DNA of 64,000 nucleotides, taken from positions 146,317 to 210,316 of IMG/VR virus record IMGVR_UViG_3300037249_001405; one strand, given 5' to 3'. This DNA comes from a virus. Taxonomy: Duplodnaviria; Caudoviricetes. Below are positions 1,486 through 16,600 of the stretch, one piece after another. A model generated the notes under the pieces. The model did no database searches. It saw nothing but the letters and a program-made list of their open reading frames with translations, and was not told the origin of the DNA. The stretch's first letter is position 1. Every line of letters begins with the position of its first letter. A program made the position numbers and the translations under genes.

Positions 1486-3498
<2,013 letters not shown>

Positions 3499-3518
3499 TC
3501 GCTTGAGACTCTTATATA

Positions 3519-3595
3519 TGAAGAAATATTCAGAGCCAATTTTGGCCGCCCATGAACCGCAGTGATGCGCCGGGCGGCTTTTATTTTTTTTTTTC
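3519..3595 (+). ncRNA. Candidate small RNA (own promoter motif, GC-rich hairpin, U-tract)
   Basis: GACTCTTATATATGAAG promoter-like motif at 3507-3523; stem GCCGCCC/GGGCGGC (3545-3578) with inner CGC-AGTGAT-GCG; T-tract; no ORF. May also simply terminate ligA. Confidence 0.4.
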
Positions 3596-3603
3596 TTTCC
3601 TTC

Positions 3604-3692
3604 AAACCCTTATTTATGAAGAAAGTATAAATGTAATTATATTTTCTTCAATTTATTTTTCAAGATATTAATTAAGTAAAAAACTATTTATT
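3604..3692 (+). promoter_or_regulatory. Promoter-hairpin-U-box leader, copy 1
   Basis: AAACCCTTATTTATGAAG, hairpin 3618-3649, TTTATTTTTCAAGATATTAA. Confidence 0.75.
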
Positions 3693-4295
3693 ATGGCAGA
3701 AAAAATATTAAATGAGGAAGAACTTCCCTTCCCCAAATTCATGAAGAATGCTGTTTTCGGTGAACAGTTTCTCATGAAAGAACCTTACTACGGGGTAGCC
3801 ACATACCTTGAGTCTGTAGTAAGGCACGGGTATTACACATTTAGGTTTGCACCTGTCTATGTAGACCCTTTTAGAGAACGGATTAGTAGAGGATTTATAA
3901 CCGATTTCGTAACGAAATCAGAAAAAGAAATCCTTATTAATCCGGATCACGGACAAGAAATAATTGGAAAATTGAATGGTACGTTCAATTTTCAGAAAAT
4001 GTATGAGCTTCACGCCATTAGTGTCATTCTGAGCAACCATACGGATTGCCTAGACAGGACCGAAACTGACGTGGAAATACATGGCTTCTTTTCTCACATC
4101 CGACCCGAAATTCTCGGAGTTCTTGAGAAAAAGAGCAAACTGGCTAAAGAATTTATAGCCAGACTTTCTGAAAGAGAAAGAAATTGCTGCTTCAGCAGAC
4201 AAGACGCTGAATGGAAAGCCTTTAGCAGTGTAGACTGGAAGAAGGAACTCCAGAACTGTGGCTTAGATCTTTCAGAATATTTAACTATCTTTTAA
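3693..4295 (+). CDS. Hypothetical protein
   Basis: 200-aa ORF directly after the conserved leader. Confidence 0.75.
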   Translation: MAEKILNEEELPFPKFMKNAVFGEQFLMKEPYYGVATYLESVVRHGYYTFRFAPVYVDPFRERISRGFITDFVTKSEKEILINPDHGQEIIGKLNGTFNFQKMYELHAISVILSNHTDCLDRTETDVEIHGFFSHIRPEILGVLEKKSKLAKEFIARLSERERNCCFSRQDAEWKAFSSVDWKKELQNCGLDLSEYLTIF

Positions 4296-4307: not shown

Positions 4308-4700
4308 ATGAAAAGTTTAAAAAAGTACAACCGAAAAAACCCTTGGCTTGAGGTAGGTCAGGGTGAATACACGGTATTCAGAAATTACGTAAAATTTGCG
4401 GAAAATGATGCCGATGATTTTTATGGATATTCAGTAAATCCATTTTACTGTTATATTCTGCCTTTAACAAAATTTAAGACTCCTTACTGGAATACAACAC
4501 ATTTTTGTATTTCTAGTGTAGATGATTGGGGTATTCATGCCACATTCAATTACGCTATGACCAGAGAGGAAGCTACGAAACTTTGTAGGGAGTTCATTAG
4601 AAGTTTCAAAAGAACCTCTAGAAGTTTCGGTGGTCTTACACAAGACCACTTTGAAGAATTCTTCAGAGAAAAAGGAGCTGATGAGATATCCCGAGGGTAG
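4308..4700 (+). CDS. Hypothetical protein, similar to the C-terminal domain of ORF 42696-43574
   Basis: FCISSVDDW..FEEFFREKGA vs FIISGGDDY..FDEFFYSKGA. Confidence 0.75.
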   Translation: MKSLKKYNRKNPWLEVGQGEYTVFRNYVKFAENDADDFYGYSVNPFYCYILPLTKFKTPYWNTTHFCISSVDDWGIHATFNYAMTREEATKLCREFIRSFKRTSRSFGGLTQDHFEEFFREKGADEISRG

Positions 4701-4720
4701 TCTCATCAGTCATTAAGATA

Positions 4721-4936
4721 AAACCTCACGTAATCGGTTGAAAGTCCTATATGGATACCCCGGTTCGAACCCGATGAAAACTTGCACGTAACCCCAGGCG
4801 TGTATTGTAAGTAGTTCCGAGTCCCTGAAAAAAGGAGGGCTGCGTCGTGTGAAAAGGACAGTCAGTGAGAAACTCTCACTGGTGCGGCGTGGCTAGAGAT
4901 AGTTGGTAAATTCGGGCTGATCTATGTGAGTTTTTT
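4721..4936 (+). ncRNA. Structured non-coding RNA (~215 nt), possibly raiA-motif-like
   Basis: Closing stem CTCACGTA-ATCGGTT / GGCTGAT-C-TATGTGAG then T-tract; internal hairpins including a T-loop arm CGG-TTCGAAC-CCG (4761-4773) and CAGTGAG/CTCACTG; GC-rich; no ORF. Confidence 0.65.
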
Positions 4937-4942
4937 AAGAAA

Positions 4943-5002
4943 AAAAAAATAAAGACATTTAATCTAAAATTAATTAGGTTATTTGTCTTTATTTTTTTTT
5001 TT
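4943..5002. terminator. Bidirectional terminator between convergent units
   Basis: AAATAAAGACA/TGTCTTTATTT inverted repeat with A- and T-tracts. Confidence 0.65.
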
Positions 5003-5022
5003 ATTTTTCTGGTCTATTTTTA

Positions 5023-6741
5023 TTAGAGAAAACTTCTGTCTTTAGACCAGAATATATTTATTGATGGGGTGGTGTTAATATCCACCTTATCACAATCCAA
5101 ATTATAAATCCAGAAGTCTCCGTTAACTAAGTTGATTAATGGAGAATTCTCAGATTTATCGAGAACCACCCGAGAAAGCGGAATAGAAAGTTGAGGTTCT
5201 CTATCTACGCTGATTTTTTCAGCGGGGTAGATATAGAAAGCTCCGGTAGGAATGGTAAGATCTTTTACATCATCCTTATGAAGGATGGTCGGTACAATCC
5301 GATCCATCAGAGCTTTTTTCTGCTCTTCGGCTTCTTTATGATTGTAAAAAGCCTCCTCACGGCAATAATCAGCGCTACCAATTCTTTGGGAGACTCTTGA
5401 GATTACATCACTTACAAGAAGGTTATAAACTACCTCGTAAGTGATATAAACTTTATCAGTAAACATTGTTTCCAAGGTTTTTCTGATATTTACGTCAGAA
5501 GATTTCTCAACGTAACTATCCTTCAAAGCAAGGATAGGTTTATCTACATGGAGCTTCTTACCAATAATAGACTTCATGTAGGTAGTGAGATAGTATGGCT
5601 TAAGGTAGCTGTAGCCACCGTCATCACACAACTCATTTAAATCACTGACGGTGATCTTATCTTGTCCGCCAAGTAATTTAATTAATCTTTTAGCTTTTTC
5701 AGGCATGTTGTAGTCTTCAAAAGCTTTCTCAATGATTTCATAGTATTTTTCCAGATAGTTTATTTCAGTACCGTCCGGCATTGTTGTTACCATAGAATCA
5801 TCAATAAACTTAGGTTTATCCTCGTATTCACCAGTGTCCTTGTAAACGGAAGAACTGATAAACCAGAAATAAACTGTAATATTCTTGAGCGTAGTGTTAT
5901 TTTTTACCACGAAATAGTGGTAATCAACATCGCTACTATTCTCATCTTCGTCTTCGTTAATGACACCTGCTCTTATAACAAGCATATTGCCATTAGCAAA
6001 TTTGATATTATACACCTCTCTCGAGAGGTTATCGTACTTTGTTATAAAAGAAGGTATTCCCATCATCTCAGGAGAACCATTCTCGTCTTTGCCAGTTGAA
6101 AGAACTAACTCATCAACGAATTTAACAAGTTCACCAGTTTTCATGTTAATACCTACTTTTATATCATAAGAATCATCCTCGTAACAATGATCATCATAGT
6201 CGCAGAGATAACATTCAGGTTCTTCTATACCGAAGAAATTGTAACGAAGCGTTTTGCTGCTTGTTTCAAAATTATCCTCCGTTACAGATTTTATGATATA
6301 GTAATCATCTGTCTTAAAGTTACAGATAAGCTTAGGACACCCATTTTCAGTGTTGCTAAGGTCTATAACTGTAAGACTGTTATCATCCCTGAGGATATAA
6401 AATTCGTTCCACCTGAATGGATCAAAGTTAATATCCTGTATAGTTCTGAAAAATTCGGTTACCGAATTCTCGCTTACTTTGTAATTTACATCACAAAGAT
6501 AATTTATCGATTCAAATAAGAGATGCTCTTTCAAATATCCCTCATTTGTTTGGGAATCGAATCCTTTTTCGATTCTTTTGATAATACATTTCAAAATTTT
6601 CTGAAACGTATTAACAAAGCTTTTATTGTTCCTCTTTGAAGGAAATTCAACGGAACAATAAAATTCAATGAGATCTGCTTTCTGCAAATCAACATTAAGA
6701 CCCTCCTCAACAGGCTTGGGTCTTTTCAAAAGAAATTCCAT
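5023..6741 (-). CDS. Hypothetical acidic protein
   Basis: 572-aa ORF preceded by the conserved leader. Confidence 0.8.
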   Translation of the reverse strand: MEFLLKRPKPVEEGLNVDLQKADLIEFYCSVEFPSKRNNKSFVNTFQKILKCIIKRIEKGFDSQTNEGYLKEHLLFESINYLCDVNYKVSENSVTEFFRTIQDINFDPFRWNEFYILRDDNSLTVIDLSNTENGCPKLICNFKTDDYYIIKSVTEDNFETSSKTLRYNFFGIEEPECYLCDYDDHCYEDDSYDIKVGINMKTGELVKFVDELVLSTGKDENGSPEMMGIPSFITKYDNLSREVYNIKFANGNMLVIRAGVINEDEDENSSDVDYHYFVVKNNTTLKNITVYFWFISSSVYKDTGEYEDKPKFIDDSMVTTMPDGTEINYLEKYYEIIEKAFEDYNMPEKAKRLIKLLGGQDKITVSDLNELCDDGGYSYLKPYYLTTYMKSIIGKKLHVDKPILALKDSYVEKSSDVNIRKTLETMFTDKVYITYEVVYNLLVSDVISRVSQRIGSADYCREEAFYNHKEAEEQKKALMDRIVPTILHKDDVKDLTIPTGAFYIYPAEKISVDREPQLSIPLSRVVLDKSENSPLINLVNGDFWIYNLDCDKVDINTTPSINIFWSKDRSFL

Positions 6742-6837
6742 AATAAAGTAGTTTTTATGTGTTAATAAATCGTGAAAAATAAAAAGAAGAAAATATAGAC
6801 TCTTTACATCTATATTTTCTTCATATATAAGAGTTTA
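6742..6837 (-). promoter_or_regulatory. Promoter-hairpin-U-box leader, copy 2
   Basis: AAACTCTTATATATGAAG, 14-bp stem 6786-6822, TTTTTATTTTTCACGATTTATTAA. Confidence 0.8.
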
Positions 6838-6851
6838 AAGGAATTAGAATA

Positions 6852-8390
6852 TTAATTGTTTTTCTCCATTCCCTCTTTATCCTTCCAATTAATGGCAGGA
6901 TAATATCTTTCTATTTCATTTACTGTATTACCAAAGATCACATCTTCTATCTCGAGTGTATCTTTGTATGCCATAGGTGACTCATCGATGGTCTTTTTTG
7001 TTACTGATGTAGTCACAATACCCTCCATCTCTTTCTCGAATGAAGACATGGAGAACTTAAGAATTTCATTAATCTCGTCATCTGAGAGATTACCAAAATC
7101 CTTTTCATACTTAGCCAATATGGTTAAGTTCTCATCGGAGAAGTCCAAATCAGATTCGTACTCCTCCTTTAATTTGAGGTATTCTTGGAGTTGTTCTGCC
7201 AACTCCAACCTCCTGTCGGCTTCCTTTCTGGACATGATACGTCCGGCACCATGTGGCGCCGAATTACCCCATTCAGGATTACCTAGACCTTCAGCTATTA
7301 CAACACCATCCTTCATTGAGAACGGGATAATAACTATTTCGCCCTGTCTTGCTCTGATAGAAGACTTCCTCAATGTTCTATCCTCAAGATCAACGAAATT
7401 ATGTGTAGTAAATATAGTATCAACAACGCGGACACTATACTTACTTAAAATATCCGTTATGATCTTTTGAACAGTTATGTGATTGTACCTTGCATAAAGC
7501 TGTGCAAAGCACATATCCTGGAGATAACCTTTCATATTATCTCCCTTCAGATAACCATTCATGAATCCTTCTTCAAGCTTCTCGAACTCTGCCGAGAGAT
7601 ACTTGTTTAATTCATCCTTAAAGAACTTCATGTCCTTTCCTTCGGCCTTATATTTAGCCTTGAAAGAATCAGTAAGTTCCTTTTCTTTCTCTTTCCTTTC
7701 TTTCTTAGAAAGAGGGTTATTTGAAATGTTCTTCCAGTAAGTAGCTACAGCAAGACCAAATCTTCTTGATCCAAAGTGAAGGAAGAAAGCAGCTTTCTTC
7801 TTATCCTTTGTCAAATCATACTCCAGAAAGTGGTTTCCGCCACCTACTGTTCCGAGTGATTTCCAAAAGACACCTGGATCAAAGTTATTAATACGTTTAA
7901 GAAACGCATTAATCCAGTCTTCCGATACACGTACAGGAAGATCACCTAACATTTCAGGCCAAAGTTGCCTGTATTTGTTAAATTCCTTTGTTATGAATTT
8001 ACAAAATTCATCAGTTTTCACCTTTGAATTTTCATGAAGGTGAAATCCCATAGGTACCTGTTGAGATACCTTATGTTCAAACTCGATAAGCTTGTCTTCA
8101 GAGACAGGTTTATCGAGAATCATACCAGATACAGTACAACCTATATCTACTCCGATGTGGAGTGGGTTAATATAGTTGCCAATAGTTGCAGAAAGGCCAC
8201 AAGGACCTGCTGCACCTACGTGAGCATCTGCCATAAGATAAACCGATTGGCCCTCAAAGGCTTTCGAGTTTATGATGTCGTCAACCTGTTCCAGCACACC
8301 TGGGTCATAGGTCCTTATATACGCTTTACAAGTAGCGTATTTTCCCTTTTTTACGAGAGGGAGGGGACCATCGTAATATAAATTTGCCAT
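6852..8390 (-). CDS. rtcB: RtcB-family RNA 3'-phosphate/5'-OH ligase
   Basis: DAHVG, GVDIGC, GTVGGGNHF, HFGSR, THN and SAPHGAGR motifs, DESPMAYK. Confidence 0.93.
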   Translation of the reverse strand: MANLYYDGPLPLVKKGKYATCKAYIRTYDPGVLEQVDDIINSKAFEGQSVYLMADAHVGAAGPCGLSATIGNYINPLHIGVDIGCTVSGMILDKPVSEDKLIEFEHKVSQQVPMGFHLHENSKVKTDEFCKFITKEFNKYRQLWPEMLGDLPVRVSEDWINAFLKRINNFDPGVFWKSLGTVGGGNHFLEYDLTKDKKKAAFFLHFGSRRFGLAVATYWKNISNNPLSKKERKEKEKELTDSFKAKYKAEGKDMKFFKDELNKYLSAEFEKLEEGFMNGYLKGDNMKGYLQDMCFAQLYARYNHITVQKIITDILSKYSVRVVDTIFTTHNFVDLEDRTLRKSSIRARQGEIVIIPFSMKDGVVIAEGLGNPEWGNSAPHGAGRIMSRKEADRRLELAEQLQEYLKLKEEYESDLDFSDENLTILAKYEKDFGNLSDDEINEILKFSMSSFEKEMEGIVTTSVTKKTIDESPMAYKDTLEIEDVIFGNTVNEIERYYPAINWKDKEGMEKNN

Positions 8391-16281: not shown

Positions 16282-16394
16282 AAATATTACCAATAACCAC
16301 TTAAGCTACCGACGCTTTTCAGGGCATCAGGTCCGAGTTGAACGGACTACTCTCGTTTTTCACGCGAGCGCTTCACCGATTATTGGTAATATTT
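16282..16394 (-). ncRNA. Circularly permuted tRNA-Phe(GAA)-like RNA inside a 17-bp closing stem
   Basis: Minus strand: GGTG-AAGC-G-CTCGC-GTGAAAA-ACGAG-AGTA-GTCCG-TTCAACT-CGGAC-CTGATGC-[CCTGAAAA]-GCGTCGG-TA-GCTT-AAGT; all four tRNA stems pair. Confidence 0.8.
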
Positions 16395-16600
16395 CTCTCA
16401 CGGAGGCATCGATACCTCATCAAATACGTAGCATAAGCTAGTTATGATCTCTTGCGTGAAATTTTCTCATTTTTGTTTCGGATATTATTTGATTTATCCA
16501 GGCAGTATCAGAGAACAATCACTCTGCCTTTAATTTTTTTTTTTGATTTTTGCAAACCCGCGGTTCATCACCGCGGGTTAATCAAAATGATACCCACTCA

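What the first reader, a model, noticed from the sequence alone, without database searches (positions are those of the whole stretch)
4721..4936. ~215-nt structured RNA with a T-loop arm, resembling the raiA motif at its 5' end
Seen: a long end-to-end closing helix with G-U pairs, plus the hairpins TCC/GGA, CGG-TTCGAAC-CCG, TGCACGT/GCGTGTA, GCTGCGTCGTG/TGCGGCGTGGC, CAGTGAG/CTCACTG and CTA-GAGA-TAG, in a GC-rich island with no ORF. From memory, the segments GGTTGAAAGTC, CACGTAA and AGTGAGA and the overall size recall raiA-motif RNA, which is known mainly from Bacillota and Actinomycetota. This resemblance is unverified. A phage-borne variant or a new family would both be notable.
Basis: partly seen in the sequence, partly recalled or inferred. 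Interest (0 to 1): 0.7.

Follow-up and report, generated by a model that had tools for sequence, protein, structure and literature searches.

The report
New tRNA-mimicking RNA in rumen phage

Summary
Observation confirmed. Window 4721-4936 (+) is a conserved structured RNA.

- **Relatives:** four further distinct copies, in two clades, lie directly behind the homologue of the upstream 130-aa gene in rumen metagenome contigs.
- **Fold:** 99% of base-pair cells are kept. 18 pairs change on both sides (0/500 shuffles; 0-1 when partners are slid). Paired columns are 62% identical between clades, unpaired columns 89%.
- **Corrections to the minimum-energy fold:** two of its helices are wrong. Covariation supports a new hairpin P5 and a pseudoknot instead.
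- **Not raiA:** no Rfam 15 family matches, even at E<=10 (raiA, RNase P, tmRNA, tRNA, YrlA). An RNase P-like P4 pairing is refuted by covariation.
- **Layout:** closing stem, junction motif GUUGAAAG, small "variable" hairpin, T-loop hairpin (UUCRAAY), closed 7-bp "acceptor" hairpin, ~80-nt pseudoknot insert, D-loop-like AGYU(U)GG hairpin. This is the order of YrlA tRNA mimics.
- **Against YrlA membership:** no Ro60/TROVE or DUF2828 gene in the 210-kb phage fragment.
- **Dispensable:** sister phages about 94% identical in both flanks lack the RNA.
- **Second RNA:** another tRNA-mimic RNA 11.6 kb away shares the junction motif AAUCGGU(U)GAA(A)G.

Function is inferred only. My best guess is a tRNA-shaped protein-binding scaffold or decoy in the tRNA-damage and repair conflict.

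The scan has noted YrlA-like phage RNAs on other DNA, but not this family.

The parts
3693..4295 (+). ORF200, first gene of the transcription unit; no known family
   Evidence: No Pfam or PHROG hit. Only two close relatives among 1.84 G representative proteins.
4308..4700 (+). ORF130, the conserved gene directly upstream of the RNA; no known family
   Evidence: Its homologues brought in all related loci. The AlphaFold model is poor, pLDDT 59.
4678..4709 (+). Hairpin across the ORF130 stop codon (CUGAUGAGA / UCUCAUCAG). It is kept as AGCAGAG / CUCUGCU in clade 2 and also in loci that lack the RNA
   Evidence: Read.
4721..4936 (+). The structured RNA (whole match)
   Evidence: Covariance-model matches, E 1e-41 to 1e-70, in L118, L119, L120, L121, L124. 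99% of cells paired and 18 covarying pairs.
4725..4738 (+). P1, 5' strand of the closing stem; pairs with 4916-4930
   Evidence: 14 pairs, 4 changed on both sides, 100% paired.
4732..4744 (+). Junction motif AAUCGGUUGAAAG, invariant. It resembles YrlA's GNCGAAN0-1G with U in place of C
   Evidence: The same motif stands at the same place in the second tRNA-mimic RNA of this genome; these are the only two matches in 210 kb.
4744..4756 (+). P2, the 'variable-arm' hairpin GUCC-UAUAU-GGAU
   Evidence: U-A changes to A-U between clades. The loop begins CUAU, which fits YUAY.
4761..4773 (+). P3, T-loop hairpin CGG-UUCGAAC-CCG
   Evidence: The loop is UUCGAAC, UUCAAAU or UUCGAAU in the relatives. The stem is 3 bp and invariant.
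4780..4808 (+). P4, closed 'acceptor-like' hairpin: 7 bp plus a 2-bp extension, loop AACCCCAG
   Evidence: 4 pairs changed on both sides.
4815..4837 (+). P5 hairpin (UUCC / GGAG) with a 15-nt A-rich loop. It replaces helices 5 and 6 of the minimum-energy fold
   Evidence: UUCC/GGAG becomes UAC/GUG: one compensatory change plus loss of a whole pair.
4821..4824 (+). Pseudoknot strand GUCC; pairs with GGAC at 4856-4859
   Evidence: GUCC/GGAC becomes GCCC/GGGC in clade 2.
4838..4894 (+). Long arm: P6 (4838-4849 with 4883-4894), the conserved 12-nt bulge UGAAAAGGRCAG (4850-4861) and P7 (4862-4870 with 4874-4882)
   Evidence: P6 has 4 and P7 has 3 pairs changed on both sides.
4896..4913 (+). D-arm-like hairpin GAG / UUC with loop AUAG-Y-U(U)-GG plus 4 variable bases
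   Evidence: The stem is invariant, so it is untested by covariation. Length and sequence vary only where tRNA D-loops vary.
4916..4930 (+). P1, 3' strand
4931..4936 (+). U tract directly after P1; likely 3' end
   Evidence: Kept in both clades.
4940..5001 (.). Two-way terminator hairpin (28-nt arms) shared with the convergent genes. It is present with or without the RNA
5023..6741 (-). ORF572, convergent neighbour in clade 1; no known family
   Evidence: 37% identical homologue in L119. The model is unusable, pLDDT 44.
6852..8390 (-). RtcB RNA ligase; in clade 2 it is the direct convergent neighbour of the RNA

Best explanation
Window 4721-4936 (+) encodes a stable non-coding RNA of a family absent from Rfam 15.

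Shown:
- It folds into a 14-bp closing stem around three small hairpins, a pseudoknotted ~80-nt arm and a last small hairpin.
- It is under stronger constraint than the neighbouring protein gene.
- It can be lost without loss of its flanks.

Inferred:
- It is made as the tail of the ORF200-ORF130 transcript. I found no promoter consensus between the ORF and the RNA.
- It ends at the U tract behind the closing stem.
- The V-like, T-loop, closed acceptor-like and D-loop-like elements assemble into a tRNA 'elbow', as in YrlA-type Y RNAs.
- The junction motif AAUCGGUUGAAAG is a protein-docking handle shared with a second tRNA-mimic RNA of the same phage.
- The RNA works as a tRNA-shaped scaffold or decoy for a tRNA-recognising or Ro60-like host or phage protein during the contest over tRNA cleavage and repair. 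The pseudoknot insert would be the family-specific working part.
For: - **Homologues and fold:**. 99.0% of cells paired; 18 pairs with changes on both sides, 0/500 shuffles, 0-1 in slid controls.
- **Selection, between clades:** unpaired columns 89% identical against 62% for paired columns. RNA 76% identical against 68% for ORF130 DNA.
- **Selection, within clades:** RNA 96-98% identical against about 92% for ORF130 DNA.
- **Strand:** many G-U pairs; z -1.77 on the plus strand, +0.86 on the minus strand.
- **Layout:** the order V, T, acceptor-like, D inside a closing stem is the YrlA order described in PMC4201824.
- **tRNA-like loops:** the T-loop keeps U54-U55-C56-R57-A58. The D-like loop keeps A-G-Y-U-G-G, and indels fall only in the tRNA-variable pockets.
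- **tRNA-like positions:** a U follows the acceptor-like stem and a C precedes the T stem, where tRNA has U8 and C48. This is read from the sequence.
- **Shared handle:** the motif occurs twice in 210 kb, both times at the 5' junction of a tRNA-mimic RNA.
- **Context:** RtcB is a convergent neighbour in both clades. Jumbo phages are known to carry RtcB, and some carry TROVE with a tRNA-like partner (PMC7824862).
Against: - Rfam YrlA (RF02553) does not match the RNA at E<=10, either in the region scan or in the whole record. The tRNA model and ARAGORN also find nothing.
- No TROVE or DUF2828 gene in the 210-kb fragment. The fragment is only 56% complete.
- The T stem has only 3 Watson-Crick pairs.
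- 9 nt separate the T stem from the acceptor-like stem, where tRNA has none.
- About 90 nt are inserted before the D-like element.
- The D-like stem and the T stem never vary, so covariation does not test them.
- Only two clades are known, so each covarying pair is essentially one evolutionary event.
- There are no expression, binding or processing data.
- The RNA is dispensable in sister phages.
Confidence: 0.45

Rival explanations
1. A structured 3'-end module of the operon mRNA. A compact, exonuclease-resistant fold with its own stem and U tract protects or terminates the ORF200-ORF130 transcript. The T-loop is only a common RNA building block and there is no tRNA mimicry.
For: - Position between the stop codon and the terminator, with no promoter consensus in between.
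- The U tract behind P1 is conserved.
- T-loops occur in many unrelated RNAs (general knowledge).
- The CM tests for tRNA and YrlA fail.
Against: - Loci without the RNA keep the same stop-codon hairpin and strong terminator, so the operon does not need it.
- 89% identity of 94 unpaired columns is far more constraint than a passive roadblock requires.
- The junction motif is shared with a second RNA that stands behind a different gene.
Confidence: 0.25
2. raiA-motif RNA, or a phage variant of it.
For: Similar size. Resemblance of short segments, recalled from memory only.
Against: - No Rfam match at gathering scores or at E<=10.
- Two of the three recalled segments lie in helices that differ between clades.
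- Different genomic setting.
Confidence: 0.02
3. A small mobile or inserted cassette, present or absent between strains and flanked by the short direct repeat TTAAGA(T)AAAA at 4713-4723 and 4935-4945.
For: - Clean presence or absence between phages 94% identical in both flanks.
- A-rich direct repeats at both ends.
Against: - The RNA is found at one site only and is single-copy in the genome.
- It is present in both clades, so loss is the simpler history.
- The empty alleles keep a 9-14-nt relic, GCCCCTGAAAGAAA, matching the P5 loop. This points to deletion.
- The repeats are A-rich sequence in A-rich spacers.
- No recombinase or endonuclease gene is linked.
Confidence: 0.06
4. A strongly reduced RNase P-like RNA, with GAAAGUCC (4740-4747) pairing with GGGCU (4914-4918) as a P4 helix. 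I raised this idea myself.
For: Sequence likeness to RNase P conserved regions I and V, recalled from memory.
Against: - GUCC pairs locally with GGAU and covaries: GACC/GGUU in clade 2, while GGGCU stays fixed.
- No RNase P model matches.
Confidence: 0.01
5. A permuted tmRNA-like or split-tRNA precursor that is cut in the acceptor-like loop and used in translation.
For: - T arm followed by a closed acceptor-like stem whose loop contains CCA-like letters, AACCCCAG.
- M. smegmatis YrlA is cut by RNase P and receives CCA (PMC4201824).
Against: - ARAGORN finds no tmRNA or tRNA.
- There is no anticodon arm.
- The short frames that can be read in P6-P7 differ between clades in the pattern of helix covariation, not of a conserved peptide (read).
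- No G3-U70 pair in the acceptor-like stem.
Confidence: 0.03

Closest known systems
YrlA-type bacterial and phage Y RNAs (Rfam RF02553; Chen et al. 2014, PMC4201824)
   Same: - Ends pair into a closing stem.
- Inside it, in the same order: a short purine-rich motif, a small V hairpin whose loop starts YUAY, a T arm with a tRNA-type loop, a closed acceptor-like hairpin, then a D-like element.
- It is encoded near RtcB, as in the Salmonella rsr-yrlBA-rtcBA operon.
   Different: - No match to the Rfam model.
- No Ro60/TROVE gene in the 210-kb record.
- The motif has U where YrlA has C (GUUGAAAG against GNCGAAN0-1G).
- 3-bp T stem and a 9-nt T-to-acceptor linker.
- About 90 nt of pseudoknotted insert before the D-like element.
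- About 210 nt long against about 115 nt.
The second tRNA-mimic RNA of the same phage
   Same: - Closing stem plus U tract.
- Identical junction motif AAUCGGU(U)GAA(A)G.
- V, T, acceptor-like and D-like order.
- CCUGAAAA-type A-rich loop.
   Different: - About half the size, with no pseudoknot arm and a 5-bp T stem.
- It stands behind a different gene.
- No overall sequence match: model R2 does not find it.
raiA-motif RNA
   Same: About 200 nt, ornate, function unknown.
   Different: - No covariance-model match.
- Different host range and gene context.
- No shared helices shown.
tmRNA tRNA-like domain and viral tRNA-like structures
   Same: Use of a T-loop and D-loop elbow outside a true tRNA.
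   Different: The acceptor end is closed, there is no tag reading frame, and the element is not at a genome or RNA 3' end that could be aminoacylated.

Membership tests
raiA motif RNA | Match to the Rfam covariance model at or above its gathering score | tested here: not met
   No family reached its gathering score in the window. raiA is not among the matches at E<=10 in 4600-5050.
raiA motif RNA | Occurrence in Bacillota or Actinomycetota, typically upstream of raiA and other genes | tested here: not met
   Virus record. The RNA lies downstream of ORF130 and before a terminator.
YrlA (RF02553) | Match to the Rfam YrlA model (gathering score 69 bits) | tested here: not met
   Not listed at E<=10 in the region scan. 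In the whole record the only weak matches, 23 bits or less, lie about 55 kb away in the tRNA region.
YrlA (RF02553) | Encoded within about 4 kb of a Ro60/TROVE gene and on the same strand | tested here: not met
   No TROVE match in the 210-kb record at E<=1 and no DUF2828. The record is 56% complete, so absence from the phage is not proven.
YrlA (RF02553) | Module order: closing stem, V, T, closed acceptor-like stem, D | tested here: met
   Order read from the covariation-supported structure against the description in PMC4201824. An ~80-nt extra arm lies before D.
YrlA (RF02553) | 5' motif GNCGAAN0-1G | tested here: not met
   The sequence is GUUGAAAG, with U for C, and is invariant in all five copies. 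A near match only.
YrlA (RF02553) | tRNA-type T arm and D arm able to form the elbow contacts (G18-U55, G19-C56, U54-A58, 15-48) | tested here: inconclusive
   The required bases are present and invariant. The stems are short, never vary, and no 3D test was possible.
YrlA (RF02553) | Binding to Rsr/Ro60; pseudouridine 55 made by TruB | not testable with these tools
   Needs experiments.
tRNA / tmRNA | Recognised by ARAGORN or the Rfam tRNA or tmRNA models | tested here: not met
RNase P RNA | P4 helix between the GAAAGUCC region and the 3' region; match to an Rfam RNase P model | tested here: not met
   GUCC covaries with the local GGAU instead. No model match.

The most novel reading that the evidence does not exclude
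This RNA and the smaller tRNA mimic 11.6 kb away are two members of a Ro60-independent class of phage Y-like RNAs. Both dock on one as yet unknown protein through the shared handle AAUCGGU(U)GAA(A)G and present a tRNA elbow. Here the RNA also carries a pseudoknot 'effector' arm. They would form particles that divert or recruit tRNA-directed nucleases, or repair enzymes such as the neighbouring RtcB.
Probability: 0.22. Interest if true: 0.75.

Novelty: new variant of a known kind. Interest (0 to 1): 0.55.

Why it matters
- It adds a covariation-supported RNA family, with a defined pseudoknot and a tRNA-like elbow, to the growing set of ornate RNAs in huge gut and rumen phages.
- If the YrlA-like reading holds, tRNA-mimic 'Y-like' RNAs exist without a nearby Ro60 gene and can carry added domains.
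- Natural strains with and without the RNA, 94% identical in both flanks, offer a ready-made comparison for its role in the tRNA cleavage and repair contest between phage and host.

Tried and rejected
**Searches for further relatives that found none**
- blastn against 50,697 phage records: no match.
- Four exact-pattern scans of IMG/VR and one of GTDB genomes: only tRNAs, a tmRNA T arm and chance coding hits.
- Homologues of ORF572 in IMG/VR: none. It is an orphan in the 5.8 G protein set.
- RtcB synteny: 76 RtcB loci (74, plus 2) and 31 whole jumbo-phage records searched with model R1. No RNA found.

**Access limits**
The ENA/Logan contigs with RtcB 66-95% identical (P0002-P0004) and ORF130 66% identical (P0123) could not be fetched.
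- The metagenome records behind L119-L125 are not held for whole-record searches.

**Ro60 partner hunt**
- Negative in the phage itself.
- One related jumbo phage (G002) has TROVE but no similar RNA beside it.
- Two cultured phages with TROVE gave only tRNAs at Rfam gathering scores. I therefore could not print a YrlA consensus for a base-by-base comparison.

**Neighbouring proteins**
- AlphaFold models of ORF130 (pLDDT 59) and ORF572 (pLDDT 44) were too poor for fold searches.
- The protein atlas gave nothing usable.

**Rejected ideas**
- A 24-nt complementarity between ORF200 coding sequence (3887-3910) and the RNA 5' part has no conserved counterpart. I treat it as chance.
- Helices 5 and 6 of the minimum-energy fold are rejected: 79% of cells paired, no covariation.
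- RNase P-like and tmRNA-like readings are rejected; see the rival explanations.

Full report
**Setting.** The window is bases 146317-210316 of a 210-kb IMG/VR virus record, estimated 56% complete: a jumbo phage fragment. The gene order around the finding is as follows:
- NAD-dependent DNA ligase, 1501-3498 (+)
- a G+C-rich terminator
- ORF200, 3693-4295 (+)
- ORF130, 4308-4700 (+)
- the candidate RNA, 4721-4936 (+)
- a 28-nt-arm two-way terminator, 4940-5001
- convergent ORF572, 5023-6741 (-)
- RtcB, 6852-8390 (-)

**Is it there?** The region is a G+C island: 0.48 against 0.26-0.40 around it. It holds no ORF. The plus strand folds to -65.4 kcal/mol, z -1.77, with 9 of 200 shuffles as good. 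The minus strand gives z +0.86. Energy alone would be weak evidence.

**Known families.** No Rfam 15 family reaches its gathering score anywhere in the window. At E<=10 in 4600-5050 there are only four chance hits. None of them is raiA, RNase P, tmRNA, tRNA or YrlA. ARAGORN finds no tRNA or tmRNA. The raiA reading is therefore not supported.

**Finding relatives.** DNA searches and pattern scans of phage, IMG/VR and GTDB collections gave nothing. The upstream ORF130 has two homologue clusters, at 93% and 66% identity. A scan of JGI metagenomes with their alignment returned eight rumen loci.

A covariance model built from the window sequence alone then matched full length, directly behind the ORF, in five of them: L118 (identical to the window), L119, L120, L121 and L124, with E 1e-41 to 1e-70.

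The other three loci (L122, L123, L125) have the same ORF, the same stop-codon hairpin and the same terminator, but no RNA. L121 (with RNA) and L123 (without) are 93.7% identical in ORF130 and 93.9% in RtcB. The RNA is thus a dispensable cassette.

It occurs in both clades, and the empty alleles keep a short relic matching the P5 loop (GCCCCTGAAAGAAA against GCCCCUGAAAAAAG). Loss by deletion is therefore more likely than insertion.

**Structure.**
- On the five distinct sequences the minimum-energy-derived structure had 96.8% of cells paired and 16 pairs changed on both sides. Its helices 5 and 6 were not supported.
- Inspection of the variable 'unpaired' columns gave two better elements. One is hairpin P5: UUCC/GGAG in clade 1, UAC/GUG in clade 2. 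The other is a pseudoknot between the P5 loop and the 12-nt bulge of the long arm: GUCC/GGAC becomes GCCC/GGGC.
- The revised structure has 62 pairs, 99.0% of cells paired and 18 pairs changed on both sides. 0 of 500 shuffles reach this, and slid controls give 0-1.
- Paired columns are 62% identical between clades and unpaired columns 89%.
- The RNA is more conserved than the adjacent coding DNA at every depth.

Caveat: with two clades, each covarying pair is essentially one event.

My own idea of an RNase P-like P4 pairing is refuted. GUCC covaries with the local GGAU.

**What it looks like.** From 5' to 3', inside the closing stem, the elements are:
- the invariant junction GGUUGAAAG
- a 4-bp hairpin whose loop begins CUAU
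- a T-loop hairpin, G-UUCRAAY-C
- a closed 7-bp hairpin
- the pseudoknotted arm
- a small hairpin whose loop reads A-G-Y-U(U)-G-G followed by four variable bases

Chen et al. (PMC4201824) describe YrlA as a 5' GNCGAAN0-1G motif, a V arm whose loop starts YUAY, a T arm, a closed acceptor-like stem and a D arm. That is the same order. The bases needed for the tRNA elbow are present and invariant (U54, U55, C56, A58, G18, G19, plus U8-like and C48-like positions). The only length change in the D-like loop falls where tRNA D-loops vary.

**What speaks against membership.** The Rfam YrlA model does not match. The motif has U for C. The T stem is 3 bp. A 9-nt linker and a ~90-nt insert have no YrlA counterpart. 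No TROVE or DUF2828 gene is in the record.

I therefore say it is laid out like a YrlA, and may work like one. I do not file it as a member.

**A second RNA with the same handle.** Reading it shows the same closing stem plus U tract, and the same junction letters AAUCGGUGAAG. AATCGGT(T)GAA occurs only twice in the 210-kb genome, at these two junctions. About 0.6 matches per genome are expected anywhere. By my own estimate, the chance that a given ~115-nt RNA holds the motif is of the order of 1e-3 or less. This suggests a shared partner or origin.

**Context.** RtcB is a convergent neighbour in both clades. It is directly adjacent in clade 2, and lies behind ORF572 here. ORF572 has a 37%-identical homologue behind the RNA in L119. 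TROVE proteins exist in one related rumen jumbo phage and in crAss-like Bacteroides phages. A review notes RtcB in jumbo phages and, in some, TROVE with a tRNA-like partner (PMC7824862). None of this shows a functional link.

**Mechanism.** What is shown and what is inferred are set out under the best explanation. The main rival is a passive 3'-end stabiliser. It is weakened by the strong conservation of unpaired bases, and by the fact that operons without the RNA keep their own hairpin and terminator.

**Earlier scan notes.** The scan has reported YrlA-like tRNA-mimic RNAs in other phage genomes. Some have a conserved 'handle' and some have non-Ro60 partner proteins. Look-ups by sequence and by place found this family only on this genome.

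Noticed in passing
window 16290-16400 (-): A second, smaller tRNA-mimic RNA with a closing stem and U tract. It carries the same junction motif AAUCGGUGAAG as the RNA studied here. These are the only two matches to AATCGGT(T)GAA in the 210-kb record.
   Followed up: partly
window 4678-4709: A 9-bp hairpin spans the ORF130 stop codon. It is kept with different letters in clade 2 (AGCAGAG/CUCUGCU) and also in loci that lack the RNA. It may be a processing or stabilising site for the upstream mRNA.
   Followed up: partly
L122 1489-1560, L123 4394-4470, L125 4394-4470: Sister phages about 94% identical in both flanks lack the RNA. They keep a 9-14-nt relic resembling its P5 loop, which suggests loss by deletion.
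   Followed up: partly
window 3401-3415, 3512-3526, 3610-3624 (+), 6816-6830 (-): The 15-nt motif TTATWTATGRAGAAA has 5 matches in the window, allowing one mismatch, against 0.2 expected. Copies lie upstream of ORF200 and of ORF572. It may be a phage promoter or leader element.
   Followed up: partly
window 5023-6741 (-) and L119 5445-7229 (-): ORF572 has no family and no relatives in the large protein set. A 37%-identical 594-aa homologue lies behind the RNA in the 93%-related phage. It is a conserved but unknown neighbour in clade 1.
   Followed up: partly
L139 5620-5763 and about 5870-6010 (Bacteroides phage PhiCrAssBcn13): Downstream of the crAss-like phage TROVE (Ro60-like) gene lies an 880-nt gene-free gap. 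It holds a tRNA with an 82-nt insert in the anticodon region. It also holds a second tRNA-like element whose 7-bp acceptor stem encloses a long insert in place of the D arm. These are possible Y-RNA-like partners.
   Followed up: no
L138 7411-8859 (G002, a 376-kb rumen jumbo phage): This related RtcB-bearing jumbo phage encodes a TROVE-domain protein 60% identical to those of crAss-like Bacteroides phages. No YrlA or similar RNA was detected beside it.
   Followed up: partly
window 3887-3910 and 4728-4751: 24-nt, 79% complementarity between ORF200 coding sequence and the 5' part of the RNA. There is no conserved counterpart in relatives, so it is probably chance.
   Followed up: partly
window 4831-4837: A perfect Shine-Dalgarno-like AAGGAGG lies inside the RNA. 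It reads AAGUGGG in clade 2 and forms part of helix P5, so it is not a conserved ribosome-binding site.
   Followed up: yes
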